From the IMG/VR virus record IMGVR_UViG_2974759174_000001: a stretch of 64,000 bases of DNA; one strand, given 5' to 3'. The translations under genes were made by a program, and so were the position numbers. Shown piece after piece: positions 12,990-46,400 of this stretch. The DNA is from Bixzunavirus cane17. Its lineage: Duplodnaviria > Heunggongvirae > Uroviricota > Caudoviricetes. Each line of letters begins with the position of its first letter. Position 1 is the stretch's first letter. Under the pieces are notes generated by a model, which made no database searches, was not told where the DNA came from, and was given only the letters and a program-made list of their open reading frames with translations.

Positions 12990-13052
12990 CTGAGATACCC
13001 ACGTGTTATACTCAGTGCACACCACCACACAGACACCCACAGGAGAATGACA
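12982..13052 (+). promoter_or_regulatory. promoter-leader element variant (GGAATTAA box, TATACT)
   Basis: family member. Confidence 0.45.
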
Positions 13053-13292
13053 ATGGCGCTCCCTACCCTCACCTGGCGCACCGAGACCAACGGGCGCAAG
13101 AAGGTCGCCACCACCCACCTGCGCACCAAGTACATCCTGGAGAAGATCGACGGCACCTGGGTCGCCCTGGTAACCGTCCCCCAGACCCGCAACCGCATCG
13201 GCGGAGGCACCGAGACCCTGGTGTCCGGCGTGACCTTCGCCCAGGCCCGCGCTGCCGCTCTGGACGACTACAAGCGCAACGGAGGCAACTGA
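13053..13292 (+). CDS. hypothetical protein (79 aa)
   Basis: second ATG chosen (AGGAGA spacing 6); the first ATG at 13047 abuts the RBS. Confidence 0.65.
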   Translation: MALPTLTWRTETNGRKKVATTHLRTKYILEKIDGTWVALVTVPQTRNRIGGGTETLVSGVTFAQARAAALDDYKRNGGN

Positions 13293-28017: not shown

Positions 28018-28091
28018 GCCGCAGTATGCAAACCGGAAAAGCAGCCGTACTCAAAATGCGGTGCGTGCGGGTTCGATCCCCGCCTGCGGTA
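28018..28091 (+). tRNA. tRNA, type I; the anticodon loop reads CTCAAAA (CAA), so the isotype is ambiguous
   Basis: acceptor GCCGCAG/CTGCGGT, T-arm GCGGG-TTCGATC-CCCGC. Confidence 0.5.
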
Positions 28092-28458
28092 CTTTGGCTC
28101 GTTGACGTTGCTGCGCCTGGGTGTTGGCGGCAGTGCAGGCCTTGCACCGGCACTTGATCTTGGGGTTGCGATACCTCCCCACAGTTCCATGCTGGTGATA
28201 TCCCATGTCGTTCGCCGTCTTCTCCTGATGACAGGGCTCGCAAAGCACCTGACACTTGGTCAGCTCAGCTTCTCGCCGTGCGGCGCTCCAAGACCAGATC
28301 TTGTGGTCGACTTTCTGAGTCGGGTCGATGTGATCAAGTCGGAGATCTTCTGTGGCACCGCACTCCACACAGGACTTCCCTGCGAAGTACTCGGTTCGCC
28401 GTCGCGCCACCCATTCACGTTGATACTGGCGCTGGGCTTCGGGGTCCTTGTAGGGCAC
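28051..28458 (-). CDS. HNH homing endonuclease (135 aa); its 3' end overlaps the last tRNA on the opposite strand
   Basis: CVECG ... LDHIDP ... KCQVLCEPCH HNH motif; GTG start with GGGATAGGA RBS. Confidence 0.8.
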   Translation of the reverse strand: MPYKDPEAQRQYQREWVARRRTEYFAGKSCVECGATEDLRLDHIDPTQKVDHKIWSWSAARREAELTKCQVLCEPCHQEKTANDMGYHQHGTVGRYRNPKIKCRCKACTAANTQAQQRQRAKVPQAGIEPARTAF

Positions 28459-28514: not shown

Positions 28515-28572
28515 AACCTACCGACCTGTTCTAACCAGTAGGAGCAACACCTTCTATCTGGCAGGAGCAGGG

Positions 28573-31500
28573 ATGAGTGACTTTGGTCTGTTCGAGGCGG
28601 CAGCTGACGCCGAACAGGAGCCGAGCCGTAAGCACCGGATCGCCGCGCGCAAAATGGCCGCAGCGCTGGTCGACGTGCACGCCAAGTTCGGGTCGTTCAT
28701 GACCAACGCTGACGGCGTCGACAACTTCGAGGACCGGTTCTCGATGAGTCGTCGTGACATCGCCAAGGTCATGGTGGCCCACGGTGTGGGCGCCTATCCG
28801 GCGGTGATGCGTGAGGTCCACGGCAGCCTCAAGAGCGCTTGGTACGAGAAGCACGCTGAGTTCGACGAAGACGCGGGCACCACCGAGGAGTCCAACTTCG
28901 AGGACGGCGATGACTCCGGCTCGGACAAGCCCGGCGGCAAGGAGGCCCGGCGCCGCAAGGTCGCTGAGGACCGCGACGCCCCGGTACAGGCCATCCAGGA
29001 GACCTACGCCCCGTCGGGCGGCAACTTGGTCCCCGAGGGTGACTTCGACGGCTACCTGGACCGAGTTGACCAGGGTGGTCCTGAGAACGTCAGTGGCCAC
29101 GACTTCACCCCCGGCGGCGACTCGGGTGTGGACTCCCACCACCACGAGGCCCGCCAGCTGGTGGCCGACCTCTACACCGACTGGGCCGAGAGCAATGGCC
29201 TCCGTGTCGCGTCGATGAACACCCTCGACGTCTACGCGGCCAACGGCCTGCACGACGACGACTACTACCTGCTGGCCGCGATGATCCGCAAGGCCGAGTG
29301 CGAGTGCGAGGACGACGACAAGGAAGAGTCCGACTCGGACGATTCCGACTCGGACAGCGATAGTGACTCGGACAGCGACTCGGACGACGACGTCGACGAG
29401 GACGGCCCCGAGGGTCCGGACACCGACAGCGACGGCCCGCCTGCGGGTGCTGCCGAGAAGGGCGGCGAGATCTCCGACGAGGGCGGATCCGAGGACGACT
29501 CCAATCCGTTCGACGGCGAGGATGAGGCCCCCGAAGAGGATGGCGAGGACTTCCCGGCAGACCCCAATGGCCTGGAGGACGCCGGTCCTCAGGACGCGCC
29601 CGTCGACGACGGCAGCGCTGGTGGCCAGGAGTTCACCGTCCCCGAGCAGGCCCCTGAGCTGCCACAGGACGAGATGAGCCAGCTGCAGGACTCCGGTCCA
29701 CAGAGCGTGCCGCCGGAGGTTATCGACGACATCCTGGGCCTGCCTCCGGGCACCCTGGAGCAGCTCATCGCCGAGGAACTCGGTCAGGCTGGCGGCGGCA
29801 CTCCGCCGCAAGGGTCGCCTCCGCAGTTGGCCCGCCGACGTCGTCAGGCGGCAGAGGACCCCACCGGGGCCGCTGAGTCTGCCGACCAGGGTGACGCAGC
29901 GGCGGCAGCAGCCCCGGCAGCCGCAGGCGCGGGCAGTGCTGGAGCCATCCCGCCGCCTGGATCGGCCTCGGTCGCTCCTCCGCCCGCACCGGCGCCGCTG
30001 GAGAACCAGCCCGCCGAGGACGCACTGCTGGACACCGCCGTCCAGTCGGTCACCCAGATGATCGACCGCGAGACCCAGGAGTACCAGCAGATCATCGACC
30101 CGCTGACGCAGGCCCTGCAGGCGATCGAGTTCGCCCAGCAGGTCGAGCAGGCCGAGAATCCGCTCGACGTCACCCCGCCCGAGGGCACCGTCGATGCCAG
30201 CCCGGCAGCAGCCCCTGGTGGCGCCAACAGCCTGCAGCAGCAGGCCAGCCACGCGCGGCGCATGATGGCGCGCACGGCAGGCATCGCCAAGCAGTTCGGC
30301 CTGACCAAGCGGGCCGAGGCCATGATGATCCACGCGATGAGCCGCAAGCACTACGAGCACGTGGCCGAGGCCATCCGTATGGTGCCGCCGGAGATGCGCG
30401 GTCCGGTCGCCGAGCACATTGGCGCGATGTTCCGTGAGGACAACCCCCGGTTCAACCACGACCTGTGGATGCAGCACGTCGCCGGAAACAGGCGCGCCAA
30501 GAGCACCGACGACTTCCACACCTACAACGACCGTGGCGGCGAGCCGGGTGATTACGAGCGCAACAACCGGGGCTACAGCGAGATCGGCAACGGCATGGTG
30601 CAGGACTGGGAGACCGGCGAGGTCTACCCGCACCCCGGACGCACTGCGGGCCGCTGGAACACCCCGCCGGGCGGGACGCCGTGGCTGGATGCCACCCCAG
30701 CGAGCCGCCGCCCTTTCGTCGTTAGCCGTACCGCCGGGGAGACCTGGAAGAACACGCCCACCATGGACGCGTTCGAGTTCCCCGGCCACGGCGAGACGCC
30801 GGAGATCTCCGACAACATGAAGATCAACGACCTGCCGAAGACGACCAAGAACGCCGCCCTCGACGTCGAGGCCAAGGGCGTGCTCGACATGTTCGACGAC
30901 TTCACCAAGAAGCGCACCGACAAGGGCCTGAACCTGGGCCCTGCGGCCAACGTCGAGACGTTCAAGCAGGAGAAGGGCGACAAGGTCGGTCCCAAGGCTC
31001 TCGACAAACTGGAGAAGACCATCGAGGCCAACCGCAAGGCGGCGTCGTTCTTCACCCGCAAGGTGCCGGGTTGGACCTGGAACGACCACCTGGCCGGGTA
31101 TGTCACCGACGCCCGTCGGCAGTTCATCTGCTCGTGCGGCGCCGGTATTGAGACGCCGAGCTATACCATGTGCCACTGCGGCAAGATCTGGAACAGCTAC
31201 GCGATCGGCGACACCCAGCACCTGGCCAGCGACTCCGCCGAGCAGTTCATCACCCGCGAGATCCCGGTCCGCAAGGACGTGATCCTGGCCAACCGTCAGA
31301 TGGCCGATGGGCCGCTTACCGGCGACGAGAGGCTGCCTCAGGACGACCCTGAGAGTCTGGCCTATCAGGACCGCCAGGGGATCTCGAACGCCCCTGGGTG
31401 GGGCACCTGGCCGCAGCATCAGATGAAGATGATCGTCGACAGCCCGGAGTTCCGTGTCCCGGAGCACTACTTGCCGGGTCGTGACCGAATGAGCCACAAG

Positions 31501-31995
31501 CAGGCCTGGACCTCTGACAGTGGCTGGACCCCGCCGGACCAGCGCGACGTCGACTGGGTCGAGGACGAGGACCGCGAGGACGCCGATGGCCCGCAGGCCC
31601 CGGGCAAGACTGCCGGTGCCTTCGACACCTACATGAACGGCCTGTCGCAGCTGCCGGAGTTCGACGAGTGGGCCATGGGCAGTGATCATGTCCCGGCGCC
31701 GGAGTCCACACCTGCTCCTCCAGCACCAGCACCGGCTCCCTCGCTCAAGGACCGGGTCCGCCAGCATCTGATCGACCGGATGAACCGCACCGGTCCTCCC
31801 GGAGGCTTCGCCGGTGGCCGCTCGGCCAAGCTCAAGGACGAGGACTACATCGTCAAGTACACCGACGATGAAGATCCGGCGCGTCGGTCCGGCCCAAAGA
31901 AGCCTCCGTCCACCACGATCAAGGGTGGAGATCAGAAGTGGCACTCTCGCGGTGATGGAGGGAAGTTCACGTCCACTTCTCCATTCGGTGAGTGA
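28573..31995 (+). CDS. giant acidic low-complexity protein (1140 aa) with an (SD)n repeat, Pro/Ala-rich linkers and a C-terminal SWIM-type zinc finger
   Basis: DSDDSDSDSDSDSDSDSDDD at about 29330-29390; CSCGAGIETPSYTMCHCG fits CxCxnCxH; high GC3; the opposite-strand 1190-aa ORF is a shadow. Confidence 0.8.
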   Translation: MSDFGLFEAAADAEQEPSRKHRIAARKMAAALVDVHAKFGSFMTNADGVDNFEDRFSMSRRDIAKVMVAHGVGAYPAVMREVHGSLKSAWYEKHAEFDEDAGTTEESNFEDGDDSGSDKPGGKEARRRKVAEDRDAPVQAIQETYAPSGGNLVPEGDFDGYLDRVDQGGPENVSGHDFTPGGDSGVDSHHHEARQLVADLYTDWAESNGLRVASMNTLDVYAANGLHDDDYYLLAAMIRKAECECEDDDKEESDSDDSDSDSDSDSDSDSDDDVDEDGPEGPDTDSDGPPAGAAEKGGEISDEGGSEDDSNPFDGEDEAPEEDGEDFPADPNGLEDAGPQDAPVDDGSAGGQEFTVPEQAPELPQDEMSQLQDSGPQSVPPEVIDDILGLPPGTLEQLIAEELGQAGGGTPPQGSPPQLARRRRQAAEDPTGAAESADQGDAAAAAAPAAAGAGSAGAIPPPGSASVAPPPAPAPLENQPAEDALLDTAVQSVTQMIDRETQEYQQIIDPLTQALQAIEFAQQVEQAENPLDVTPPEGTVDASPAAAPGGANSLQQQASHARRMMARTAGIAKQFGLTKRAEAMMIHAMSRKHYEHVAEAIRMVPPEMRGPVAEHIGAMFREDNPRFNHDLWMQHVAGNRRAKSTDDFHTYNDRGGEPGDYERNNRGYSEIGNGMVQDWETGEVYPHPGRTAGRWNTPPGGTPWLDATPASRRPFVVSRTAGETWKNTPTMDAFEFPGHGETPEISDNMKINDLPKTTKNAALDVEAKGVLDMFDDFTKKRTDKGLNLGPAANVETFKQEKGDKVGPKALDKLEKTIEANRKAASFFTRKVPGWTWNDHLAGYVTDARRQFICSCGAGIETPSYTMCHCGKIWNSYAIGDTQHLASDSAEQFITREIPVRKDVILANRQMADGPLTGDERLPQDDPESLAYQDRQGISNAPGWGTWPQHQMKMIVDSPEFRVPEHYLPGRDRMSHKQAWTSDSGWTPPDQRDVDWVEDEDREDADGPQAPGKTAGAFDTYMNGLSQLPEFDEWAMGSDHVPAPESTPAPPAPAPAPSLKDRVRQHLIDRMNRTGPPGGFAGGRSAKLKDEDYIVKYTDDEDPARRSGPKKPPSTTIKGGDQKWHSRGDGGKFTSTSPFGE

Positions 31996-32002
31996 GGGAC
32001 GA

Positions 32003-32473
32003 ATGACAGCTGTCGAGGATCGCTTTTGGTCCAAGATCGATGCATCTGATGGATGTTGGCTCTGGACGGGGTCTCTCACGCACAACGGATACGGTCGATT
32101 CAAGGTTGACGGGAAGATGGTCCGAGCACATAGGTTCGCCTATCAGATGATGATCGGCGACATCCCTGAAGGCATGGAGCTGGACCATCGGCACACCTGT
32201 CCCAAGAGGTGCGTCAATCCAGAACACCTGCGACTTGTAACGCACAAACGCAATCAGGAGAACCGGTCAGGAGCCATGAGAAACAGCTCCACCGGCATTC
32301 AAGGGGTGTATTGGGACAAGAGGAACTCCTGCTGGCATGCGCGGGTGGGACATCACGGCAAGCGCGTCCACGTGGGGCGTTTCTTGACCTCGGAAGAGGC
32401 TGAGGCTGCCGTTGTTGCCAAGAGGCTGGAACTCTTCACTCATAACGACGCAGACCGGTTGGTGACCGTATGA
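32003..32473 (+). CDS. HNH endonuclease with C-terminal AP2 DNA-binding domain (156 aa)
   Basis: DGCWLWTGSLTHNGYGRF ... ELDHRHTCPKRCVNPEHLRLVTHKRNQ (HNH_3); GIQGVYWDKRNSCWHARVGHHGKRVHVGRF (AP2). Confidence 0.8.
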   Translation: MTAVEDRFWSKIDASDGCWLWTGSLTHNGYGRFKVDGKMVRAHRFAYQMMIGDIPEGMELDHRHTCPKRCVNPEHLRLVTHKRNQENRSGAMRNSSTGIQGVYWDKRNSCWHARVGHHGKRVHVGRFLTSEEAEAAVVAKRLELFTHNDADRLVTV

Positions 32474-32838
32474 GGGACTTGTGCTTCGGGTGTAAGGGCT
32501 TCAAGGAGATCGTCCACACCGAGGGTGGGACGGGCCATCCTTACTGCCAGGACTGCGCCCTGATGCAGCCGCCGACGTCTGACGAGTGGGCGCTGGTCTT
32601 GCTCAACGCCCCTTGGTCGCCGTACTCGGCCCCGTTCAAGCCGGGCGACAAGGTGGAGGCCCGCACTGCGGGTCAGATCTTCGACGGGGTCGGCGAAGTC
32701 GTCGACATGTCCGTCTCGCTGGAACACGGGGGAACTCCCGTGTATCCGACGTTCAAAGTGGTCCTGGCAGAGAAGGCACACGACTTGGCCCCGGATGAGG
32801 CTTGGTACACCGAATGCTGCCTTACACGAGTGGAGTGA
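32470..32838 (+). CDS. hypothetical zinc-ribbon protein (122 aa)
   Basis: CFGCKG ... CQDC; ATGA coupling. Confidence 0.65.
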   Translation: MRDLCFGCKGFKEIVHTEGGTGHPYCQDCALMQPPTSDEWALVLLNAPWSPYSAPFKPGDKVEARTAGQIFDGVGEVVDMSVSLEHGGTPVYPTFKVVLAEKAHDLAPDEAWYTECCLTRVE

Positions 32839-32841
32839 TAC

Positions 32842-35800
32842 GTGAGTAGCCCCATCTACAAGGCCGGGTCCAACTGGTCGGCAGAGGTCAATCGCCTGCG
32901 CAAGGCGGGCGTGAACATGCCGAACAGCCCCACCATGGCCCGCGCCCAGGCTGCTGCGCTCCAGAACACCGTGGACAACAAGCCGCTGATCGACTACTTC
33001 CAGGGGCGCCGCCGCGCCGCCGAGGCCAACCGCCAGCGCCTGGCCAGCTACCGCAAGCAGGGCAACTTCGGCTCCAACATGCAGATCGCCATGCCCAAGA
33101 TCCGCCAGCCGCTGGGCACGCTGGCCGACAAGGGCATTCCGTTCAATGTCGAGGACGAAGAAGAGCTTCGGGTCATCAGACACTGGTGCAGACTCTTCTA
33201 TGCCACCCACGACCTGGTCCCGCTGCTCATCGACATCTACTCGAAGTTTCCGGTCGTCGGCATGGAGTTCGACTCCAAGGACCCGCTGATCAAGACGTTC
33301 TACGAGGACCTGTTCTTCGGCGAAGACCTCAACTACCTGGAGTTCCTGCCCGACCAGTTCGCGCGCGAGTACTTCACCGTCGGTGAGGTCACCTCGCTGG
33401 CGCACTTCAACGAGTCACTTGGCGTCTGGAGCTCCGAGGAGATCCTTAACCCCGACATGCTGCGTGTCAGCCGGTCGATGTTCGTCCAGCGCGAGCGTGT
33501 GCAGCTCATGGTCAAGGACCTCGTCGACCACCTGCGTCAGGGGCCGACCACGGCGGGCGGCAACATGTCGACCGTCGAGGAGACGCCGTCGGAGCGTGAG
33601 CAGCGGATGCGCGAGTTCCAGGACCTGCAGCGCCGCTACCCCGAGATCATCCAGGCCGCGATGCAGAACGACGGCCTCGACATCTCCGAGGCCCTGATCA
33701 GCCGCGTGGTCAACCGGCCCACCGCCTGGGCCACCCGGGGCGCCCCGCACCTGCTGCGCAGCTTCCGGACCCTGATGGCCGAAGAGTCGCTCAACGCCGC
33801 CCAGGACGCGGTGGCCGATCGCCTCTACAGCCCGCTGGTGCTGGCCACCCTGGGCATCGAGGACATGGGCGACGGCGAGCCGTGGATTCCCGACCAGGGC
33901 GAGCTCGACGAGGTCCGCGACGACATGCAGTCGCTGCTGGCCGCTGACTTCCGCCTGATGGTGCACAACTTCGGCCTCAAGGTCGAGAACGTGTTCGGGC
34001 GCGAGAGCGTGCCCAACCTCGACGCCGACTACGACCGCATCGAGCGCAAGCTGCTGCAGGCCTGGGGCATCGGTGAGGCGCTGATCTCCGGCGGCACCGG
34101 TGGCGCCTACGCCTCCAGCGCGCTCAACCGTGAGTTCGTCACCCAGATCATGACAGGCTTCCAGAACGCTCTCAAGCGCCACATCCGGCGCCGGTGCGAG
34201 GTGGTCGCCGAGGCGCAGGGTCACTATGACTACGACCTCAAGGGCGGGGTCCGCGTCCCGATCTACCGCGAGATCGTCGAGTACGACGAGGAGACCGGCC
34301 AGGAGTACATCCGCAAGGTCCCCAAGCTGCTCATCCCGGAGATCAAGTTCTCCTGCGTGGTTCCTGGCACCCAGGTTCTCACCCCGACCGGCCAGCGCAG
34401 CGTCGAGGACATCCAGCCTGGCGACGAGGTCATCGCCTGGGACGGCACCGGCTACGTCATCGACACCGCCCTACACACCGGCATCGAGCATCGCGACCGT
34501 CTGGTCGAGGTGACCACTGCGACCGGACGCACGGTGCGCTGCACCGCCGATCACCCGTTCTGGACTGACCGGGGATGGGTGCTGGCTGAGAACCTCACTA
34601 CCGACAGTCTGATTCGCACGTCTGCCGGTCAGTTGGCGGCGCACATCGAGTCTGATGACGACCTGGACATGCTGCGGTTTCTGGGTCTGCTGGTTGGTGA
34701 CGGCAACTACTCGACCACCCATGTGTCGCTTTCGGTCAGCGACCCCGAGGTGGATGCGTTCGTCTGCGAGCAGGCCGAGCGGATGGGCCTGACCGCCCGA
34801 CGGAAGGCCGATGCTCGCACCGACAAGGTGTGGTACCGGACGTTCGTCCGGCCCGCGCCGTGGAAGGGCAACGCGCTCCGCAACCCGCTGCACACGCTGC
34901 TGCGCGAGCAGGGCATGTGGGGCAAGAATGCCCACACCAAGCGGGTGCCGCCGATGGTGTGGGCGGCGGGGGCCAAGGGGCGCGCGGCGTTCCTGTCCGG
35001 CTACTTCGACGCGGACGGCTACGCCTGCCGCACCTCCGGCCTCAAGATCACGTCGGTCAACCGCCTCCTGCTGGACGACTGCCAGGTGCTGTTTGAGTCG
35101 CTGGGCATCCGCGCCCAGGTGCGCTCTTACGCCTACCGCTACGACGGCCAGAAGAACCCCGGCGTGCAGTCGGTCAACCACTTGACGGTCAGCAACAACC
35201 ACTACTTCCAGATGCTGCGGGACACCCTGTCGCCGGTAATCGGCAGCAAAACCGCCGCACTAGACGACATGGCCCGCCCGTCCACGCGGGGCCGGAAGGC
35301 TCCGCGCCCGGTGGAGTGGGATCAGGTCACGTCGGTGACCCACCTGGCTGAGGGCGGCGACATCGTCACCCTGGGCATCACCAGCACCCATACTCATGTC
35401 ACGGCGGGCCTGGTGTCGCACAACACGCTCAACCTGCGTGACGAGGCCCAAGAGCGTGCCTTCATCGCCCAGCTCAAGGGCATGGGCGTGCCGGTCAGCG
35501 ACAAGACGCTGGCGGTCAACATCGACATGAAGTTCGACCAGGAGCTGGAACGTCAGGCCGACGAGACCGTGCAGAAGCTCATGGCCACCGCACAGGCCAT
35601 GAAGAAGGTCCAGGACCTGTGCGACGCGCAGAACCTGCCCTACCCGCCGGAGCTGGCCCAGCACCTGCAGTCCACTCTGGCGCTGCGCCAGGGCAAGACC
35701 CAGACCGAGCTGGGCGAGGCCCAGGCGGTCGCGGGCGGGGCTCAGGCCGAACTGCAGACCAAGCAGATCGAGATGCAGGAAATGATGATGGACCAGCAGA

Positions 35801-36537
35801 TGGCCGGTGGGGTGATGCCCGGCCAACCGATGCTGCCCCCGGGCGCTGCCGGTCCGCCTCCGGGTGCTCCCGGCGATCCTGCTGCCGGTGGCCCGCCCCC
35901 GCCCGCCGGTGGTCCGATGGGCGGTCCTCCGGTGGCCCCGGCGCCTGGCGTCGCCGGGCCGGGCAACGCCCCGGCGAGCTTCTACGCGGCCAGCCTGCGC
36001 ACGGCGGACGCCATCAACGGCCCGACCGGCACCGGCCCGTCGGCAGACGGCCCGCTGGGTCCGACCGGCCCCGAGTTGCCGCCCGGTGTGCCCGAGCCGA
36101 CTGAGGTCCCGCGTAACCGTCAGCGTCCGGCGGAGTCCGACGACAACCATCCGGGTGGCAACCTCAAGCCCGCCAGCCGGAACCGCAAGCGCACCCGCAA
36201 AGGCCAGGAGGAGCCCCGTCGGCTCACCCGCTGGGAGAAGGGTCCCTCCAGCTACGGCAAGAGCAAGATGGCTTCCGAGGAGCATGTGGTTGCTCAGATC
36301 CGTCGGCGCGAGGTCGTTGCCAACTGGGACTGGTCACAGTTTGGTAACGCTCCCCGCGTTGCTGACTTGGTAGCTGACCCGCACTTTTACCAGGCCACCA
36401 ACATGCAGGCGTATCAGGGACAGTTGCAGGCTGACTGGCCCGAGATCCAGGCCGGTGGCGCCGAGGAGAGCCGCCGGATTCTGGACGATATGCTCAGCCA
36501 GTTTCAAGAGATCTTTGGTGTCGAACCGCAGTGGTAA
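32842..36537 (+). CDS. putative portal (head-tail connector) protein interrupted by an intein; 1231-aa precursor, 874-aa extein; no Walker A motif, so not a terminase
   Basis: intein starts CVVPGTQVLT after EIKFS and ends VSHN followed by T; Pro/Gly-rich C-terminus; the portal call is an inference from size and position. Confidence 0.6.
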   Translation: MSSPIYKAGSNWSAEVNRLRKAGVNMPNSPTMARAQAAALQNTVDNKPLIDYFQGRRRAAEANRQRLASYRKQGNFGSNMQIAMPKIRQPLGTLADKGIPFNVEDEEELRVIRHWCRLFYATHDLVPLLIDIYSKFPVVGMEFDSKDPLIKTFYEDLFFGEDLNYLEFLPDQFAREYFTVGEVTSLAHFNESLGVWSSEEILNPDMLRVSRSMFVQRERVQLMVKDLVDHLRQGPTTAGGNMSTVEETPSEREQRMREFQDLQRRYPEIIQAAMQNDGLDISEALISRVVNRPTAWATRGAPHLLRSFRTLMAEESLNAAQDAVADRLYSPLVLATLGIEDMGDGEPWIPDQGELDEVRDDMQSLLAADFRLMVHNFGLKVENVFGRESVPNLDADYDRIERKLLQAWGIGEALISGGTGGAYASSALNREFVTQIMTGFQNALKRHIRRRCEVVAEAQGHYDYDLKGGVRVPIYREIVEYDEETGQEYIRKVPKLLIPEIKFSCVVPGTQVLTPTGQRSVEDIQPGDEVIAWDGTGYVIDTALHTGIEHRDRLVEVTTATGRTVRCTADHPFWTDRGWVLAENLTTDSLIRTSAGQLAAHIESDDDLDMLRFLGLLVGDGNYSTTHVSLSVSDPEVDAFVCEQAERMGLTARRKADARTDKVWYRTFVRPAPWKGNALRNPLHTLLREQGMWGKNAHTKRVPPMVWAAGAKGRAAFLSGYFDADGYACRTSGLKITSVNRLLLDDCQVLFESLGIRAQVRSYAYRYDGQKNPGVQSVNHLTVSNNHYFQMLRDTLSPVIGSKTAALDDMARPSTRGRKAPRPVEWDQVTSVTHLAEGGDIVTLGITSTHTHVTAGLVSHNTLNLRDEAQERAFIAQLKGMGVPVSDKTLAVNIDMKFDQELERQADETVQKLMATAQAMKKVQDLCDAQNLPYPPELAQHLQSTLALRQGKTQTELGEAQAVAGGAQAELQTKQIEMQEMMMDQQMAGGVMPGQPMLPPGAAGPPPGAPGDPAAGGPPPPAGGPMGGPPVAPAPGVAGPGNAPASFYAASLRTADAINGPTGTGPSADGPLGPTGPELPPGVPEPTEVPRNRQRPAESDDNHPGGNLKPASRNRKRTRKGQEEPRRLTRWEKGPSSYGKSKMASEEHVVAQIRRREVVANWDWSQFGNAPRVADLVADPHFYQATNMQAYQGQLQADWPEIQAGGAEESRRILDDMLSQFQEIFGVEPQW
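34354..35424 (+). mobile_element. intein (357 aa) with LAGLIDADG homing endonuclease domain inside the putative portal gene
   Basis: Cys1 TGC 34354; block B TADHPFWT; LAGLIDADG motifs LRFLGLLVGDGNYS and AAFLSGYFDADGYA; terminal HN 35419-35424, +1 Thr. Confidence 0.75.
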
Positions 36538-39633: not shown

Positions 39634-42600
39634 ATGGCGACGGTTTACACCGATTACGGTCCGGGCGAGATCATCGCATCGGAGACCGTGCGGGGCCGCA
39701 CTCAGTACCAGGTTCGAGTGGCCGGGTACGGGGAGTTCTGGCTGGACGCGACCAAGGTGGGCAGCGTCCACGAAGCGTGGGCCCCGCTGGACACCGACAA
39801 CTCGGTCAACCTTCCGTACGACCCCTCTCCGCAGTACCCCGCGCTGCCGGGCGACACCGAGAGCACCATTCAGCCGATCCACGAGATCGACGCCGACGAG
39901 CGGCTGTCCCCGGCGGACTCGATCACCTTCGAGGACCGCAGTGACGACGAGTCGATCATCGACGGCCACAGCGACAACTTCGCCAAGAGCGCTGCCTACG
40001 GCGACCCCACCACAAGCGAGCCCGGCTACAGCCACGGCCTGGAATGGGACGCCCCGGAGCGCAGCGAGTACGCGCACCCCGACTTCAAGCACTTTCACGA
40101 CGACCAGTACGAGGAAGAGGACCCGCTTCAGCAGGCCATGGCCGAAGAAGACGGCGCCCCCGACTGGCACCCCAGCGACCAGTACGGCGACCTGAACAAG
40201 CCGTACCCGGCGGACACCTGGCGCGGGTCGCATCCGGACCTGCCCGGCCACATGGCCAGCTCACACGAGGCCGCTGCCTTCCTCATCCCGCTCATGGGCG
40301 CCGGAGCCGGTGCTGCCGCTGGTGGAGCCGGGGCCGGTCTGGGCGGCGCGGTCGCCGGAGGCGTGGCCCGTGGCGTCGGCATGGGCGTGGCTCAGGACAT
40401 GCTCGGTGGTGGCGGCGACGGTCAGCAGGAGCCCGGCATGGTCGACCAGGCGATCGACACCATTCAGCCCGGACCCGGCTGGGGAGAGCTGCAGAAGGGC
40501 GCCGCTCTGGATCGGTGGCTGTCCGGACAGGACCAGGGGACCGGCACTGCTGCTGGACTCGGCGATCGCTACATCGACGTCACCGCTGCCGTCGACCCCA
40601 GCGACCCGATCTCGATGTTCCGGCACGACCCGGTCGCCTACATCAGCCGCACCGGCCACGTCCACGACGAGCCGGTCAGCGAAGAGATGCAGCACTACGG
40701 CCAGCTGGTCGAGGCCAACCCGCAGATCCGCGAGGCCGCGTGGAAGGACGTCCGGGCCAAGGCGATGCGTCTGCGCCGCGAGGGCCGGGTGCATGTCAAG
40801 GACGTCGCGCCGGACCGGATCTACGCCAGTGTCGACGGCGACCACGGCACCTATGAGGTGATGATCGCCAAGGGCGGTGCCTTCGGTGGCCTCGGTGGCG
40901 GTCACGCGATCAGCAACTGGCGTTGCGCGTGCGAGTGGGGCAAGTGGGCCTTCCAGCGCCGGATGACCTACGTCGGTCGTCTGTGCAGCCACGGCTACGC
41001 CGCTTACCTCACCATGCAGTCCGAGCACATGAAGGGCAAGCCGAGCCAGCGTCGTCGCTCGCCGTACCGCAAGCGTGCCGACGCGCTGCAGAACGGCCCG
41101 CAGCGCTTGGTGCCCGAGCTGGCCGTCAACGACCTCGACGACGCGCACACCTTCCTCGACGTCACCGAGGACGAGCGCAAGGAGACCGGGCCGGACGACA
41201 TCGTCAGCGAGAAGGACATCGTCCACTTCTCCCGGCTGATGGCCAAGTGCGACGCCGAACGTCTGCCCTACCCCCGGACCCTGGTGGCCTTCCTGGAGCG
41301 TTACGCCGACGACCAGTCCAAGGAGGACTGGAAGATCGAGGACACCGGCAAGGCGGGACCGGCGCTCGAAGAGCTGCGCGACTGGGCCGACACCTCGCAG
41401 GAGGACTACCTCGGCAACATGGAGGAGCGCGTCGAGGACATCCGCGACGCCGTCGACACCGCGCGCGAGCACGGCGTGGACGCCTCGCAGCTGACCGCCG
41501 GAGTGCACTTCCGCACCGCCGCCCCGAAGCCCGAGGTGACCTCGGATGGTTCGGGCGGCAAGATTCAGCAGACCCGGCAGTTCTCCCGTGACCCGGGAAC
41601 CTCGATCAGCGACTGGCTGGGTGTCGGCGGGACCCCCGGTGCCGCTGGCACCCGGTCCAACGGCGCAGGCCAGTCGATGAACCAGAGCCGTGACTCCGGA
41701 GGAGTTCAGGACACCGATTCCACCCAGGCCAAGTCGAGCGGCGGTGGCTTCGACCCGAACATGAACGACCGCAGCAACCGTCCGGTCTCCGAGGGCGGCG
41801 GTGCCACCAACGGCACTCCGGCAGGATGGTCGGCGGCTGACGCGGCCAGCCCGGGCAGCAACAACGGCCCGCATGGTGCGGCAGGCAGCGCGACCAACCC
41901 GACACCGGGCCAGCCGGGCAACAACACCCCGGCTGTGCCGGGTGCGGCCCCGAAGAACAACCTGGCCGGACCGGCAGGGACCAACACCCCCAGCGCTACC
42001 CCTCCCGGCGGCGGACAGATCGGCCAGGGTGAGTACCAGATCCAGTCCGGCGACACCCTGAGCGACATCGCGCAGCGTGCCGGATACGGCGGCGATTACA
42101 ACTCGCTGGCTCAGCAGAACAACATCGCCGACCCCGACAAGATCTTTGCGGGCGACACGATCAACATCGGCACCCCGGGCGGCGGAGCGACGACACCGGA
42201 CGTCGACCTCTCGGCAGCGACGCCGGGCGGCGGAGCGGATGCCAACAACACCGCCTCGGACTTCGCGGGCACGAGCACCAGCGGCGCGACCGACTCCATG
42301 GGGACGAACAACACCCCGACCGACAACGCGGCGGCGCAGACCACCACCGAGACCAACAAGACAGGCCGTCGTCGGCGCCAGGCGGCGCCGTCGGGCAGCT
42401 CGGCCACTCCGGCTCCGTCCACCACGCCGGATGACGAGGGTCTGGTCGACTCGATGGACAACCCGGCAGCGCCGACCGGAGGCACCCCGGCCAGCAACAC
42501 CGCGCTCAGCTCGCCGAACAACGATCTGGGTGACCCGAGCAGTGCGATCGACACCGGAGCGACCACCGGCGGTACGCCGGACGCCACCGGTGCGGGCACA

Positions 42601-43437
42601 GACGCCTCCACTCCGGGCGGGTTCGACCTGAGCCAGTTCAACGACACCATCAGCGGTGTCGGGGACGCGGTGAACACCGGCGTCGGTATCGCCAGCGACA
42701 TCGCCGGTGGTGTGGGTGACGTGGTCAGCGGCATCGGCTCGATCTTCAGCTCGCGTCAGGACTACGACGACTGGCACCGCTACGCCTACCCCGAGGCGGG
42801 CGACCACAAGCCGTTCGCCGGTTCGGGCCCGCAGGAGCCGCTGAAGTTCACCCCGTCGACCGAGTACGCCGACAAGGCCCGCCGGAAGATGGACGACGTC
42901 ACCGACCTGGACTACGACCACAGCAAGCCGGTCAATCCCCGACAGTCGTCGGCGGGCGGCGGCATCCAGCGCGCCGGACGTGGCGCGCGCCGGACGGTCG
43001 AGCCGGTGGTGGTCCGCGAGCAGCGTCCGGGTGGGCGTGTAGCCGCGCAGCAGCCCCACGTGCCGGACGACTTCGACCCACTGGCCCCGCGCACGGCGGC
43101 GAGCTTCGACGACCCGTACGACGCTCCTGATGTCGATCAGGCCGCAATGCGCATCGCGGCCAACACCGAGGGCGACATCGTCGCGGCCTTCCAGCGCAGC
43201 GCCGGAGCCGAAGCCATCATGTCCAGCTCGGGTGGCGGCGCAGCGAGCCAGTACGACGACTTCTCCTCGTCGCCTGCGGTGATCGCGGCCATGCAGCGCA
43301 CCGCCGGACGGCACTACTCGCCATCGGAGCAGGCCGAGCTGATCCGCGAGGGCGACCGTGGCGGGGCCGGAAACCTCGACGCGCTGGACCTGCGCGGAAC
43401 TCACTACGAGGCAGAGCACAGCGTCGGCCTGTGGTGA
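39634..43437 (+). CDS. giant virion-associated-like protein (1267 aa) with Gly/Ala-rich hydrophobic segment, SWIM zinc finger and LysM peptidoglycan-binding domain; candidate internal/ejection protein
   Basis: SWIM CACEWGKW ... RLCSHGYAA; LysM YQIQSGDTLSDIAQRAGYGGDYNSLAQQNNIADPDKIFAGDTINIG; GAGAGAAAGGAGAGLGGAVAGG. Confidence 0.8.
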   Translation: MATVYTDYGPGEIIASETVRGRTQYQVRVAGYGEFWLDATKVGSVHEAWAPLDTDNSVNLPYDPSPQYPALPGDTESTIQPIHEIDADERLSPADSITFEDRSDDESIIDGHSDNFAKSAAYGDPTTSEPGYSHGLEWDAPERSEYAHPDFKHFHDDQYEEEDPLQQAMAEEDGAPDWHPSDQYGDLNKPYPADTWRGSHPDLPGHMASSHEAAAFLIPLMGAGAGAAAGGAGAGLGGAVAGGVARGVGMGVAQDMLGGGGDGQQEPGMVDQAIDTIQPGPGWGELQKGAALDRWLSGQDQGTGTAAGLGDRYIDVTAAVDPSDPISMFRHDPVAYISRTGHVHDEPVSEEMQHYGQLVEANPQIREAAWKDVRAKAMRLRREGRVHVKDVAPDRIYASVDGDHGTYEVMIAKGGAFGGLGGGHAISNWRCACEWGKWAFQRRMTYVGRLCSHGYAAYLTMQSEHMKGKPSQRRRSPYRKRADALQNGPQRLVPELAVNDLDDAHTFLDVTEDERKETGPDDIVSEKDIVHFSRLMAKCDAERLPYPRTLVAFLERYADDQSKEDWKIEDTGKAGPALEELRDWADTSQEDYLGNMEERVEDIRDAVDTAREHGVDASQLTAGVHFRTAAPKPEVTSDGSGGKIQQTRQFSRDPGTSISDWLGVGGTPGAAGTRSNGAGQSMNQSRDSGGVQDTDSTQAKSSGGGFDPNMNDRSNRPVSEGGGATNGTPAGWSAADAASPGSNNGPHGAAGSATNPTPGQPGNNTPAVPGAAPKNNLAGPAGTNTPSATPPGGGQIGQGEYQIQSGDTLSDIAQRAGYGGDYNSLAQQNNIADPDKIFAGDTINIGTPGGGATTPDVDLSAATPGGGADANNTASDFAGTSTSGATDSMGTNNTPTDNAAAQTTTETNKTGRRRRQAAPSGSSATPAPSTTPDDEGLVDSMDNPAAPTGGTPASNTALSSPNNDLGDPSSAIDTGATTGGTPDATGAGTDASTPGGFDLSQFNDTISGVGDAVNTGVGIASDIAGGVGDVVSGIGSIFSSRQDYDDWHRYAYPEAGDHKPFAGSGPQEPLKFTPSTEYADKARRKMDDVTDLDYDHSKPVNPRQSSAGGGIQRAGRGARRTVEPVVVREQRPGGRVAAQQPHVPDDFDPLAPRTAASFDDPYDAPDVDQAAMRIAANTEGDIVAAFQRSAGAEAIMSSSGGGAASQYDDFSSSPAVIAAMQRTAGRHYSPSEQAELIREGDRGGAGNLDALDLRGTHYEAEHSVGLW

Positions 43438-43472: not shown

Positions 43473-46400
43473 GTGGCTACCAAGCACGTACTGCACGCCG
43501 AACGCCGGGATGTGACGACCCGGCCTACGGACAAGGCGATCCGGCGCAAGCTGAAGCACGCCGAGACTCTCGGCGACTTCAAGATGCGCCCGGGTTACCT
43601 CTACACCGTGGTCAGGGCCATCTCGGCGCGAGTTAACCAGAACTACGATGGTTGGCCATCAGACGAGCTAAAGAAGGCCGCGCACACCTTCATCGGAAAG
43701 CCGGTCTTCGTCAACCACGAGAACTACGACCCCAAGAAGGCCCGGGGAGTTGTTGTCGCGGCTCGTTACGTCGAGAACGGCAATGACAAGTTCATCGAGG
43801 TCATTCAGGAAATCGATGCCAAGCGTTTCCCAAAGCTGGCCCACGAGATCCGCACCGGCGGACTTGACTCTGTGTCGATGGGCGCCGAGGCCGGATTCAC
43901 GATCTGCTCGTACTGCGGCAACAAGGCGACCGATGTCCCCGAGATGTGCGACCACGTCCTGTACCACAAGGGCGAGCGTTTGCCACGGCACAACCGCAAG
44001 ACGGGCAAGGTCGAGGACGTTCTCGTCTACGAGTCCTGCCACAAGATCAGCTTCTTCGAGTTGAGCTACGTCTTCGACCCCGCCGACGAGACCGCTGTGG
44101 CTTCGCGCGTGCTGGTGGCCAACAACAAGACCGCCGGTGACTGCCCGCCCGGCCAGGACTGCACGGTCGGCGGCAATCCCGAGGACCAGATCACTCCGGA
44201 CTCGGCCAACAATCCGGTCAACGGCGGCAGCAACGACAGCAGCAGCACCGGCGGCGGTGCTGGAGCGAGCGCGGCCACCACGGTTTCTGGCGGCGAATTG
44301 GGCGAGCCTGGCGAGTCGGTGTCCGCCGGAGGAGGAGCCGGGGCCGACGGCATCATGGACGCCTCGCGCCCGCTCTATGACCAGCTCAAGACGATCGACC
44401 CGAACGCCGATATCGGCGGCTACCGCCCTGGCGGCGACGGCTACGACGAGCACAACAACGGCGCGCTCGACTACATGACCACCGATCCGGCAGTGGCCGA
44501 GCAGGTCAAGCAGAAGGCGTTCGAGAACGGCGCTCCGTACGTCATCTGGCAGCAGCAGCTGCACTACCCCGACGGCTCCACCAAAGCGATGGAGGACCGA
44601 GGTAGTCCGACGCAGAACCACATGGACCACGTGCACACGGGCCCGCTGACCGGACCGAAGGCTGCCCGGATCGAGCACACGGTTCTGGTTACCGCCGGGT
44701 TCGTCGATCCGGCTGTCGACTGCACCGTGTGCCGTCAGGCCCGGGTGGCCACCAAGTGCCACTACTGCGCCGGAGACGCCGAGGAGGGCTTCTCCTCGTG
44801 TGCCGCGCATCGGCCCATGGAAGAGAAGAAGTTCAGGGCCGCACAGCGAGAGGAGGCCGCGATGACATTCGAGGCTAGCGTGATTCGTGAGTTCCTCGGT
44901 GGCCCGCCACCCCCGGCCCGTCCGATGACCGGCATCGAGCACCAGCCTGGTCTCAATCCCGAGGACTATGTCGTGCCGTACAAGGGGCGCGGCTACCAGC
45001 CCGGCATGCCGGTAGACGTCTACCGCAACTTGCACTCGGAGAAGACCGGCACCGGTCTGTGGTCAGTCCGGCACAAGGGTCAGGTGGTCGGTCACGCCGA
45101 CTTCATCCACATGCCGCAGGGCAAGTTCTTCGTGGGCGAGGGCGGCAACGCCAAGGTTCAGGAGACCGGCCAGAAGAACGTGCACGCCGGTGCGCGTGGC
45201 GTGCTGGGCCCGGTCCCGCACGACCACGACCCGTCGCAGTACGTCGGCATCACCTACAACCCCAAGGCCGGAGACACCAGCTTCTACCAGCGCGAGACCA
45301 AGGAGCCGGTCTGGGAGGCCGATCATGTGCACCTGGGTCCCGACGGCAAGGCCTACACCCTCGGTCCGCGCAGCGGCATGGCCAGCGCCGACCAGAAGGT
45401 GTTCGAGGCCATGGTCCTGCAGGCCTACGGCGAGACCGAGGCGCCCACCCGTGTGGACACCCTGCGTGAAGAGGGCTCGGCGCCCGAGGACGACAACAAC
45501 GACTTCTACCACTACGTCGAGCCGCCCAAGGAGCTGCAGACCCCGGATCTGTCCGAGGCCGCACAGATCGACCGTCAGCAGGCCGAGAACCAGGGCGACA
45601 CGATGGACGTCGACGGCGACCCCGGACCGCACAGCGTGATGAACCAGGAGCCCGTCCCGGGCGCCGGTGGGGCCCCGCAGCAGCAGTTCATGACGCTGCA
45701 GATCCCGATCCCGCCACAGGGCCAGGCGCCCGGCGTGCCGATGCAGTCGTTCGCGCCGCCCGCGCCCGCCCCGGCGCCACCCATGCCTCCCCAGCAGATC
45801 GCCGCGTCGACGCTGGACTTCTTCGACCGGTACTACGGGCGCCGCGTGGCCAACTGGCTCGACGCCATTGAGGCCGGACGCGAGTTCACCGCCGAGGAGG
45901 CCTCGGACTACAGGCGGGAAGCAATGAAGCTGTCGACCCTGCAAAAAGCACCCTCAGCTTCAACAACAAGTAGGAACCCCATGAAAGGAACCGCCAACAT
46001 GGCACGCAGCAATCTCGCCTCGCGCGGCAAGGTGGTGACGGCTGGTCGTCGGCAGCACTTCGCCGAGGGTCCGTTGGTGGACTCGGGCGACCAGAGCCGT
46101 AACGACCAGGGCGAGCAGGAAGAGGCCTTCATCTCGACCACGCCGCCCGAGGAGTCCGTGGTGGCTCCCACCGACGACACCCCCAACATCTCGAACACCG
46201 AGCAGAACCTCGTCGCCCGCGTGAAGCGAGGCCGTGCCCAGCTCATGGCCGACGCGCAGAAGCTGGCTCAGCTCCAGGCTCAGCGCCAGCGCCGCATGGC
46301 CAACGAGGCCGGTGGCCCGGTGGCTACCGAGGTCAACCCGACGGTGAACTCGGGCCCCGGCGCCGAGGAGCTCACCGGCGATGACTTCGAGTCGGCCAAC

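What the first reader, a model, noticed from the sequence alone, without database searches (positions are those of the whole stretch)
28573..31995. Giant 1140-aa acidic low-complexity protein with (SD)n tract and SWIM zinc finger at the head of the late region
The protein is very acidic, with stretches of D, E, S, P and A and a perfect coding microsatellite, DSDSDSDSDSDSDSD. It carries a C-terminal CxCxnCxH SWIM-type zinc finger and an incidental GxxxxGKT match in a low-complexity stretch. It sits where a terminase would be expected, between two HNH endonucleases and upstream of the portal. It is a candidate DNA mimic or anti-restriction protein, or an ejected internal virion protein. The SD repeat is a likely slipped-strand contingency locus.
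Basis: partly seen in the sequence, partly recalled or inferred. Interest (0 to 1): 0.7.

Follow-up and report, generated by a model that had tools for sequence, protein, structure and literature searches.

The report
Acidic head-module protein with protease-site motifs
This is gene 76 of mycobacteriophage Cane17, a real, conserved, half-disordered acidic protein always encoded just upstream of the portal gene; it is most likely a head-interior protein cut by the phage's head protease, not a SWIM-finger protein, ATPase or repeat-switching locus.

Summary
The window is Mycobacterium phage Cane17 (Bixzunavirus, cluster C1). The ORF 28573-31995 (+) is gp76, 1140 aa, pI 4.5, annotated hypothetical.

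- The (SD)n tract exists in the protein but uses four different Ser codons. It has the same length in 59 of 60 sampled relatives.
- The Cys motif is CxCx11CxC. It is nearly invariant, does not match Pfam SWIM, and belongs to a narrow family of 245 cluster representatives.
- The terminase lies about 120 kb away.

The 'GxxxxGKT' is one of four [KR]-T-A-G motifs in gp76 (0.16 expected). Across 147 predicted Cane17 proteins, 12 of 14 [KR]TA[GAS] motifs fall in five head genes (P = 6e-10): gp76, DUF7245, portal, a LysM protein, and gp86. In gp86 the motif sits where stand-alone relatives of its protease-like domain end. Three sites in gp76 are conserved across 78 homologs, and one lineage has the gene split at one of them.

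The order large protein, DUF7245, portal is kept in distant actinophages.

Best reading (about 0.5): a procapsid-internal protein processed by the prohead protease, carrying a conserved polyanionic spacer. No proteomic evidence exists. Interest is moderate.

The parts
28573..31995 (+). gp76 CDS, 1140 aa, pI 4.49. It founds an uncharacterised family (PHROG 2922, no Pfam) with 77 relatives of 880-1720 aa.
28588..28872 (+). N-terminal conserved helical domain, aa 6-100, pLDDT above 90. It contains the conserved [RK]-[TILV]-A-[ASG] site at aa 22-25, which is RIAA in Cane17 (nt 28636-28647).
28993..29307 (+). Second conserved block, aa 141-245, with helices 187-242 at pLDDT about 90. In Cane17 and its closest relatives Colt, Blubba and Bigswole, a 96-aa in-frame stretch present in LinStu/Bxz1-type genomes is missing after about aa 190 (nt ~29140).
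29299..29628 (+). Polyanionic disordered spacer, aa 243-352, pLDDT below 50. It is present in all 78 family members: 41-149 aa, net charge -23 to -62. It includes the DS tract at aa 257-271 (nt 29341-29385).
30013..30207 (+). The most conserved segment of the family, aa 481-545. It is predicted as a single long helix, 483-528, with column identity 0.80-0.88.
30223..30492 (+). Helical domain, aa 551-640, pLDDT about 80-89. It contains RTAG at aa 567-570 (nt 30271-30282), a site found only in the cluster C1 relatives.
30640..30651 (+). RTAG motif at aa 690-693, in a disordered linker. It is semi-conserved as R-x-A-S-R.
30727..30738 (+). RTAG motif at aa 719-722, in a disordered linker. It is family-wide: R in 76/78, A in 71/78, G in 69/78, E in 65/78. 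One metagenomic lineage has the gene split into two genes at this position.
31036..31047 (+). KAAS at aa 822-825, the variant form of a family-wide [KR]-x-A-S-F site. It falls in the only pLDDT<50 stretch of the domain model, between the 3-helix subdomain and the Cys4 beta subdomain.
31051..31290 (+). Cys4 (CxCx11CxC) beta-rich domain, aa 827-906. C853, C855, C867 and C869 (nt 31129-31179) are nearly invariant. It is an orphan domain also found in Finch gp13, Phrappuccino gp44 and Skog gp150.
31606..31617 (+). KTAG at aa 1012-1015, in a disordered and poorly conserved region. A motif recurs near here in 14 homologs.
31825..31992 (+). Conserved C-terminal tail, aa 1085-1140, with W/Y/D/T/W/R/G positions nearly invariant. 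Function unknown; it is a candidate targeting segment.
32470..32838 (+). gp78, DUF7245, 122 aa. It is always found between the gp76 family and the portal, and it carries RTAG at aa 65.
32842..36537 (+). gp79 portal, interrupted by a LAGLIDADG intein.
39634..43437 (+). gp85, 1267 aa, a LysM/transglycosylase-like head-module protein with three [KR]TA[GA] motifs. One lies about 45 aa from the C-terminus, a position shared by the Finch, Phrappuccino and Skog counterparts.
43473..47195 (+). gp86, 1240 aa. Its N-terminal 223 aa form a prohead-protease-like domain (phrog_18299; invariant H82 and S135). KTAG follows at aa 219-222, exactly where stand-alone relatives end. Two further motifs lie at aa 1133 and 1220.

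Best explanation
gp76 is a late-expressed head-morphogenesis protein of the Bixzunavirus-type head module. The proposed mechanism has three steps.

1. It is built into the procapsid interior together with the portal, the small DUF7245 protein, the LysM/transglycosylase protein gp85 and the protease fusion gp86.
2. The prohead protease, which is the N-terminal domain of gp86, cuts it at [KR]-x(T)-A-[G/A/S] sites. The family-wide sites are at aa 22, 719 and 822. Further sites at 567, 690 and 1012 are present in Cane17.
3. This would remove a roughly 22-residue N-terminal leader and separate three parts: the N-terminal half with its conserved polyanionic spacer, a roughly 100-aa helical piece, and the Cys4 domain with the C-terminal tail.

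The fragments then either leave the head, as scaffold or core proteins do, or stay with the DNA and are ejected.

Shown here: the gene, its conservation, its fixed place next to the portal, the motif's statistical concentration in head genes, its positional conservation, and its position at the end of the protease-like domain.

Inferred: expression timing, incorporation into the head, cleavage itself, the scissile bond, and the fate of the fragments.
For: 1. Conserved gene order. The order large protein, DUF7245, portal is kept in LinStu, in metagenomic relatives, and in distant actinophages from three other genera. These are Finch (gp12+gp13, gp14, portal), Phrappuccino (gp44, gp45, portal) and Skog (gp150, gp151, portal).

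2. Motif concentration. [KR]TA[GAS] occurs 14 times in 147 predicted Cane17 proteins (41,924 aa). Twelve of these fall in five adjacent head genes totalling 5,009 aa (binomial P = 6e-10). gp76 has 4 against 0.16 expected, and 0 of 2000 shuffles reach that count.

3. Family-wide enrichment. Across 78 family members there are 157 motifs against 12.3 expected, at recurrent aligned positions 22, 719, 822 and ~1012. Column counts are R76/A71/G69 of 78 at site 719, and [RK]73/A76 at site 22.

4. Accessibility. Sites 690, 719, 822 and 1012 lie in stretches with pLDDT below 50.

5. The protease-like domain of gp86. All 19 of its relatives match phrog_18299 'head maturation protease' (best E = 6e-28), and His82 and Ser135 are invariant. 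The stand-alone 221-aa versions end where gp86 reads NNKTAGD. Fused relatives read KRTAS or NNRTAA at the same place.

6. A natural split. In one lineage, seen on 35 contigs, the gp76 homolog is split into two genes by an HNH ORF within a few residues of site 719. The two halves can therefore work as separate chains.

7. The same motif occurs in the head-module proteins of Finch, Phrappuccino and Skog. This includes a shared position about 40 aa from the C-terminus of the LysM protein and positions near the portal N-termini.

8. Some homologs carry inserted LysM or phage zinc-finger domains. Those domains suit a protein that meets the cell wall or DNA.

9. Precedent. In SPN3US a prohead protease cleaves nine head proteins at a shared motif. 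These include short 20-24-residue N-terminal propeptides, multiply cut long propeptides, the portal and the protease itself (PMC10052503).
Against: - No virion or prohead proteomics for any cluster C phage was found, so neither incorporation nor cleavage has been observed.
- The protease assignment rests on a PHROG match. Pfam Peptidase_S78_2 reaches only E = 0.095, and nothing matches in PDB or NCBIfam.
- Sites 22 and 567 lie inside confidently predicted helices.
- The major capsid protein and the cement protein carry no motif.
- The portal motif at aa 803 is inside the intein and is probably chance.
- A strongly acidic protein is an unusual companion for packaged DNA.
- A shared motif could serve some other common recognition step.
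Confidence: 0.5

Rival explanations
1. gp76 is an assembly factor for the portal vertex or procapsid, acting as a chaperone or nucleator, and is never part of the particle. Under this reading the shared motif is a docking motif for a common partner rather than a cleavage site.
For: The gene is strictly next to DUF7245 and the portal. Half of the protein is disordered, with short conserved helical blocks. No scaffold protein is annotated in the module, and gp87 is a cement protein.
Against: The motif sits exactly at the end of the protease-like domain of gp86, where stand-alone relatives terminate. The natural gene split at site 719 is more simply explained by cleavage.
Confidence: 0.2
2. gp76 is a polyanionic DNA mimic or anti-restriction protein. 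The acidic tract would bind host DNA-binding defence proteins, either after ejection from the capsid or after synthesis in the cell.
For: An acidic spacer of 41-149 aa with net charge -23 to -62 is kept in all 78 relatives, even though its sequence is not conserved.
Against: There is no similarity to any known mimic or defence-related family. The tract is predicted disordered, not a folded DNA-shaped surface. The gene heads the structural block rather than sitting among the early genes. More than 1000 other residues, including conserved folded domains, are left unexplained.
Confidence: 0.1
3. gp76 is the missing small terminase or packaging-initiation protein of these phages. The Cys4 domain or the N-terminal helical domain would bind DNA.
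For: No small terminase is annotated, and the large terminase gp243 stands alone. The gene is next to the portal. Some homologs carry a 'putative DNA-binding phage zinc finger' insertion.
Against: The size (1140 aa), acidity and disorder are unlike any known small terminase. No terminase family matches. The gene is about 120 kb from the large terminase gene. In Finch the terminase is gene 1 and the homologs are genes 12-13.
Confidence: 0.05
4. gp76 is a methyltransferase, as annotated for the homolog in several records (Quasimodo, StephanieG, Mikro, ChaylaJr, Skog gp150).
Against: No methyltransferase family matches in Pfam, NCBIfam or PHROGs for gp76 or for 30 long homologs. No Rossmann-type domain appears in the model.
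Confidence: 0.02

Closest known systems
Internal head / ejection proteins of giant myoviruses (SPN3US, phiKZ, 201phi2-1), processed by the prohead protease (PMC10052503, PMC5694885, PMC7411985)
   Same: Several head-module proteins share one short motif. These include the portal, large proteins of unknown function and the protease itself. Both short N-terminal leaders (20-24 aa) and multiply cut long regions occur. The genes are grouped with the portal and capsid genes.
   Different: The motif here is [KR]-T/x-A-[G/A/S]. The giant-phage motif ends in Glu (own knowledge: A/S/G-x-E). The protease-like domain here is fused to about 1000 further residues. There is no sequence or fold similarity to any of those proteins. 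Cleavage has not been shown here.
T4 prohead core: internal proteins IPI-III and Alt with capsid-targeting leaders, and the acidic core proteins gp22, gp67 and gp68, all cut by gp21 (own knowledge; review PMC9026906)
   Same: The core components are acidic, helical or disordered. A short N-terminal leader is followed by a protease site. Fragments are either expelled or kept and injected.
   Different: T4 sites are L/I-x-E. The T4 proteins are small (8-76 kDa) and the genes lie downstream of the portal. gp76 is 123 kDa, carries a Cys4 domain, and lies upstream of the portal.
Herpesvirus UL26-type and phage protease-scaffold fusions, with a release site after the protease domain and a maturation site near the C-terminus (cleavage at Ala-Ser; own knowledge)
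   Same: This applies to the neighbour gp86. It has an N-terminal protease-like domain followed by KTAG, and RTAG 20 aa from its C-terminus. The motif has Ala followed by a small residue, as in the herpesvirus sites.
   Different: This is an analogy only. No homology was tested, and gp76 itself has no protease domain.
SWIM zinc finger (Pfam PF04434)
   Same: There is a CxC pair followed, after a spacer, by a second metal-ligand pair, in a small beta-rich unit.

Membership tests
SWIM zinc finger (PF04434) | CxCxnCxH signature | tested here: not met
   The sequence is C853-S-C855-x11-C867-H-C869. The last ligand position is Cys. His868 is the 'x' residue, and the family consensus there is CxC.
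SWIM zinc finger (PF04434) | Match to the Pfam SWIM profile | tested here: not met
   gp76 has no Pfam family at E <= 0.1. None is found in 30 long homologs at E <= 0.01.
SWIM zinc finger (PF04434) | Fold similarity to solved SWIM-containing structures | tested here: inconclusive
P-loop NTPase (Walker A) | GxxxxGK[ST] conserved in the family | tested here: not met
   It is present in Cane17 at aa 1006-1013, but the columns are mostly gaps or variable (occupancy 0.69, identity 0.28; K in 10 of 78).
P-loop NTPase (Walker A) | Motif embedded in a strand-loop-helix of an alpha/beta ATPase fold | tested here: not met
   Residues 907-1055 all have pLDDT below 50 with no secondary structure. No ATPase family matches.
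Simple-sequence contingency locus | Perfect tandem DNA repeat able to slip | tested here: not met
   The 15 codons use GAT/GAC and TCC/TCG/AGC/AGT. TRF finds only 78-82% matching arrays with scores 30-41.
Simple-sequence contingency locus | Frequent length variation among close isolates, switching expression | tested here: not met
   59 of 60 sampled records (of 201 hits) have the same 160-bp length. Bigswole has one 15-bp in-frame deletion between 12-bp direct repeats. Jessibeth14 differs by substitutions only.
Prohead-protease-processed internal head protein | Encoded within the head-morphogenesis gene block | tested here: met
   It lies immediately upstream of DUF7245 and the portal in Cane17, LinStu, metagenomic relatives, Finch, Phrappuccino and Skog.
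Prohead-protease-processed internal head protein | Carries the short motif shared by the phage's other protease substrates, including the protease's own processing site | tested here: met
   12 of 14 genome motifs fall in five head genes (P = 6e-10). gp76 has 4 against 0.16 expected. The motif is conserved at aa 22, 719 and 822 across 78 homologs. KTAG sits at the end of the gp86 protease-like domain. That these are cleavage sites is inferred.
Prohead-protease-processed internal head protein | Protein or its fragments detected in proheads or virions, with termini at the motif | not testable with these tools
   No proteomic data for cluster C phages were found in the searchable literature.
Terminase (large or small subunit) | Terminase ATPase/nuclease domain or small-terminase family match | tested here: not met
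   There is no Pfam, PHROG or NCBIfam match. The annotated terminase is gp243 at 149239-152262.
DNA-mimic anti-restriction proteins (Ocr, ArdA type) | Sequence or fold relationship to a known mimic, with a folded acidic surface | tested here: not met
   The only PDB profile match is an acidic low-complexity stretch of cytochrome bc1 subunit 6 (E = 0.18). Foldseek against PDB finds nothing. The acidic tract has pLDDT below 50. PADLOC gives nothing.
DNA-mimic anti-restriction proteins (Ocr, ArdA type) | Inhibits restriction or other DNA-binding defence proteins | not testable with these tools
   This needs a biochemical or plating assay.
Methyltransferase (annotation in some records) | SAM-dependent methyltransferase domain | tested here: not met
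   No such family is found in gp76 or its homologs. The model has no Rossmann-like domain.

The most novel reading that the evidence does not exclude
The conserved polyanionic spacer (-23 to -62 net charge in every one of 78 relatives) is the functional core. After the head protease frees it inside the capsid, the acidic fragment would be packaged with the genome. It would then either be ejected ahead of the DNA as a disordered DNA decoy that soaks up host DNA-binding defences, or act as an internal electrostatic spacer that tunes DNA packing and ejection pressure. This would make it a packaged, protease-released, intrinsically disordered DNA mimic, which has not been described for actinophages.
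Probability: 0.1. Interest if true: 0.75.

Novelty: new member of a known kind. Interest (0 to 1): 0.4.

Why it matters
Cluster C (Bxz1-like) mycobacteriophages are widely used transducing and teaching phages. Yet their head module consists largely of giant 'hypothetical' proteins, and no scaffold protein is annotated.

If [KR]-T-A-[G/A/S] is the head-protease site, it gives a sequence rule for predicting the mature head proteome. The rule would cover gp76, DUF7245, the portal, the LysM/transglycosylase protein and the protease fusion in more than 200 sequenced phages and in a broad metagenomic clade. It would also explain the 'Walker A' look-alike, and it corrects 'methyltransferase' annotations.

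The prediction can be checked with one mass-spectrometry experiment. If the protein or its acidic fragment is ejected, it becomes a candidate early effector in mycobacterial infection.

Tried and rejected
- Pfam, PHROGs, NCBIfam and PADLOC scans of gp76 returned only PHROG 2922, of unknown function.
- A Pfam scan of 30 long homologs found only sporadic inserted Phage_zn_bind_8 (3 homologs) and LysM (1 homolog) domains.
- A PDB profile search found only an acidic low-complexity match.
- The full-length AlphaFold model has mean pLDDT 56. Foldseek against PDB gave a best E of 4.3. Foldseek against BFVD returned only the protein's own family and Finch gp12.
- The afdb50 library was unavailable.
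- I suspected a repeated small acidic helical unit inside gp76, prompted by the repeats visible in Finch gp12. hhalign of nine conserved blocks against each other gave probabilities below 1%, so I dropped the idea.
- Confirming the gp86 protease fold by PDB sequence or profile search and by NCBIfam found nothing. Pfam Peptidase_S78_2 reached only E = 0.095.
- I tested for a group I intron at the split gene in L007. Rfam found nothing, and the gap holds an HNH ORF.
- The promoter and terminator scan around the gene showed nothing above chance.
- Literature searches for Bxz1, I3 or cluster C virion proteomics or cryo-EM found nothing relevant. One search was wasted on loose terms.


Full report
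**Identity of the window and the gene**

The 3,423-bp stretch is 100% identical to Mycobacterium phage Cane17 (NC_054716.1; Bixzunavirus, cluster C1 myovirus). Window coordinates equal record coordinates. The ORF is gene 76, annotated 'hypothetical protein'.

It is 1140 aa, 123 kDa, with pI 4.49; D, E, A, G and P together make up 48% of residues. Its GC3 of 0.85 is that of a coding frame. The 1190-aa ORF on the opposite strand has GC3 0.68 and is its mirror image. The N-terminus MSDFGLFE is conserved in the family, so the start codon is correct.

*The SD tract.* The protein has DSDSDSDSDSDSDSD at aa 257-271. The DNA reads GAT TCC GAC TCG GAC AGC GAT AGT GAC TCG GAC AGC GAC TCG GAC, using four Ser codons from both codon families. 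TRF finds only weak, imperfect arrays.
- A 160-bp query spanning the tract hits 201 phage records. In an even sample of 60, 59 have exactly the same length.
- The exception is Bigswole, which lacks 15 bp (SDSDD) between two copies of a 12-bp direct repeat, in frame.
- Jessibeth14 has the same length with two substitutions.
- Only 7 of 78 family members have four or more SD units.

This is an ordinary coding stretch, not a contingency locus.

*The 'SWIM finger'.* The motif is C853-x-C855-x11-C867-x-C869, and all four Cys are nearly invariant. It is CxC...CxC, not CxC...CxH.
- Pfam SWIM does not match.
- An AlphaFold model of aa 766-906 (mean pLDDT 80) shows three helices followed by a small beta unit.
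- An exhaustive phmmer search with aa 827-906 against 1.84 billion cluster representatives finds only 245 at E <= 0.001. The domain therefore forms a narrow family.

*The terminase position.* The terminase is gp243 at 149-152 kb.

*The flanking HNH genes.* Both are real. Both are absent from LinStu, where 69 bp separate the last tRNA from the homolog, and the DUF7245 gene follows directly. They are mobile insertions, and the upstream one is unannotated.

**The family and its architecture**

A search of 5.8 billion proteins returned 77 relatives of 880-1720 aa. Most are metagenomic, and many come from contigs of about 150 kb. Conservation is blocky, with these conserved blocks:
- aa 1-95
- aa 141-245
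- aa 355-420
- aa 481-545, the strongest block
- aa 580-640
- aa 721-900
- aa 1085-1140

Between the blocks lie variable linkers.

The full-length AlphaFold model has 609 of 1140 residues below pLDDT 50. It is confident for aa 10-100, 190-244, 483-528 (one long helix), 555-640 and 768-905.

The linker at aa 243-352 is acidic in every member: 41-149 aa, net charge -23 to -62, median -43.

Cane17 and its three closest relatives lack a 96-aa stretch after about aa 190 that LinStu has. Some homologs carry inserted Phage_zn_bind_8 or LysM domains.

No Pfam, NCBIfam, PADLOC, PDB or BFVD relationship to any characterised protein was found.

**Genomic context**

The order large protein, DUF7245 (~120 aa), portal recurs in several places:
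- LinStu
- three metagenomic lineages
- distant actinophages that share only the N-terminal and/or Cys4 domains: Rhodococcus phage Finch (gp12+gp13, gp14, portal gp15), Mycobacterium phage Phrappuccino (gp44, gp45, portal gp46) and Gordonia phage Skog (gp150, gp151, portal gp152)

Downstream in Cane17 lie:
- gp85, 1267 aa, LysM/transglycosylase-like
- gp86, 1240 aa
- gp87, a Phage_cement_3 family protein
- the major capsid protein gp88

No scaffold protein is annotated.

**The motif**

In Finch gp12 and gp13, the sequence K-K/R-T-A recurs about eleven times.

*Statistics in Cane17.*
- Shuffling gives 0.16 expected for [KR]TA[GAS], and none of 2000 shuffles reaches 4.
- I examined 147 predicted plus-strand proteins covering 1-92 kb and 112-160 kb of the genome. 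The motif occurs 14 times.
- Twelve of the 14 are in gp76 (4), gp78/DUF7245 (1), the portal (1, inside the intein and probably chance), gp85 (3) and gp86 (3). Binomial P = 6e-10.
- There are none in the tail genes.

*Statistics across the family.* The 78 members carry 157 motifs against 12.3 expected. Three sites are positionally conserved:

| Site (aa) | Consensus, with counts out of 78 | Cane17 sequence |
|---|---|---|
| 22 | [RK] 73 – [T/I/L/V] – A 76 – [A/S/G] | RIAA |
| 719 | R 76 – [T/L/Q] – A 71 – G 69 – E 65 | RTAG |
| 822 | [KR] 69 – x – A 68 – S 63 – F 69 | KAAS |

Sites 690, 719, 822 and 1012 fall in low-confidence, presumably flexible stretches.

**Link to a protease**

The first 223 residues of gp86 match phrog_18299 'head maturation protease' (E = 1e-18 to 4e-20), and so do all 19 of its relatives (best E = 6e-28). 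There is a sub-threshold Pfam hint to Peptidase_S78_2. His82 and Ser135 are invariant.

Stand-alone 221-aa versions of this domain end about ten residues after the conserved FDPADE block. At that position gp86 reads VLVANNKTAGD, and fused relatives read KRTAS or NNRTAA. gp86 also has RTAG 20 aa from its C-terminus. gp85 has RTAG about 45 aa from its C-terminus, a position shared by the Finch, Phrappuccino and Skog counterparts.

This layout resembles the release and maturation sites of protease-scaffold fusions. That resemblance is drawn from my own knowledge and is an analogy only.

**A natural experiment**

In one metagenomic lineage, seen on 35 contigs, the gp76 homolog is two genes separated by an HNH endonuclease ORF. 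The upstream gene ends ...SRGRLPFL. The downstream frame resumes (VALAGET)LKNTPTMD. The break is therefore within a few residues of site 719. Rfam finds no intron there. In Finch the N-terminal and Cys4 parts are likewise separate genes.

**Interpretation**

The simplest reading is that gp76 is a procapsid-internal protein cut at [KR]-x-A-[G/A/S] sites by the head protease. Documented parallels exist in SPN3US, phiKZ and T4. In SPN3US nine head proteins share one protease motif. They include the portal, the protease itself, proteins with 20-24-residue leaders, and proteins with multiply cut long propeptides (PMC10052503).

I cannot tell whether the gp76 fragments are expelled like scaffold or kept and ejected. 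I put the overall reading at about 0.5, because no proteomic data exist for this phage group.

The rivals are:
- a non-incorporated assembly factor (0.2)
- a polyanionic DNA mimic (0.1)
- a packaging-initiation protein (0.05)
- the 'methyltransferase' annotation carried by some records (0.02 or less)

**Verdict**

The feature is real and conserved, and its family is uncharacterised. The useful outcome is a testable candidate protease-site rule for the Bixzunavirus-type head module, with a place for gp76 within it.

I score interest at 0.4 and novelty as a new member of a known kind.

Noticed in passing
window 28051-28458 (- strand): There is an unannotated HNH endonuclease gene of 135 aa (phrog_4234 E = 1e-51; Pfam HNH). 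It lies between the tRNA cluster and gp76, and its 3' end overlaps tRNA-Leu(caa) at 28018-28092 by 42 nt. It is absent from LinStu, where only 69 bp separate the tRNA from the gp76 homolog. It looks like a mobile insertion.
   Followed up: partly
window 32003-32473 (+): HNH/AP2 endonuclease gp77 is inserted between gp76 and the DUF7245 gene. It is absent at this position in LinStu and in all other relatives examined.
   Followed up: partly
window 32842-36537, intein about 34354-35424: The portal gp79 is 1231 aa, against 874 aa in LinStu. It carries a Hint/LAGLIDADG intein (Pfam LAGLIDADG_3 E = 1e-12). Portals with inteins also occur in metagenomic relatives (L007, L009).
   Followed up: partly
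window 37295-38761: gp82 is annotated 'HNH endonuclease' and is 488 aa. The syntenic LinStu gene is ThyX at 235 aa. By eye, the Cane17 sequence looks like ThyX interrupted by an HNH-containing intein (CVAGSTRV...VHNS). This was not tested with profiles.
   Followed up: no
window 43473-47195 (gp86) and 39634-43437 (gp85): gp86 is a 1240-aa fusion. It has an N-terminal prohead-protease-like domain (aa 1-223) plus about 1000 further residues, including a Phage_L5_gp82 domain. gp85 is a 1267-aa LysM/transglycosylase-like protein. Both are annotated hypothetical, and both carry [KR]TA[GA] motifs near their C-termini. gp87 belongs to the Phage_cement_3 family, so no separate scaffold gene is evident.
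   Followed up: partly
window ~29140 (after aa 190 of gp76): Cane17, Colt, Blubba and Bigswole lack a 288-bp (96-aa) in-frame segment that is present in LinStu/Bxz1-type homologs. That linker is therefore dispensable.
   Followed up: partly
L007 10001-14700: A metagenomic lineage has the gp76 homolog split into genes of 880 aa and about 504 aa by an HNH endonuclease ORF (12653-13168). The break is at the conserved R-x-A-G-E-T site. Rfam finds no intron.
   Followed up: yes
L010 5333-9312 (Rhodococcus phage Finch gp12, gp13): The Finch counterparts are two genes. By eye they contain about eleven K-(K/R)-T-A motifs, each preceding a short acidic helical unit, which looks like a polyprotein. Internal repeats were not tested for Finch. 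No such repeats were found in gp76.
   Followed up: partly
window 53369-55252 and 55245-56546: gp95 and gp96 share an N-terminal sequence (ITAREQFEML.PW...). Both have R-T-A-[D/N] at aa 55-60. They may be paralogous head proteins with similar leaders.
   Followed up: no
phage records Quasimodo gp88, StephanieG gp87, Mikro gp86, ChaylaJr gp83, Skog gp150: The homologs of gp76 in these records are annotated 'methyltransferase', although no profile supports this.
   Followed up: yes
window 28531-32103 (- strand): A 1190-aa antisense ORF mirrors gp76. Its GC1 is 0.84 and its GC3 is 0.68, so it is an artefact of the high-GC coding frame on the plus strand.
   Followed up: yes
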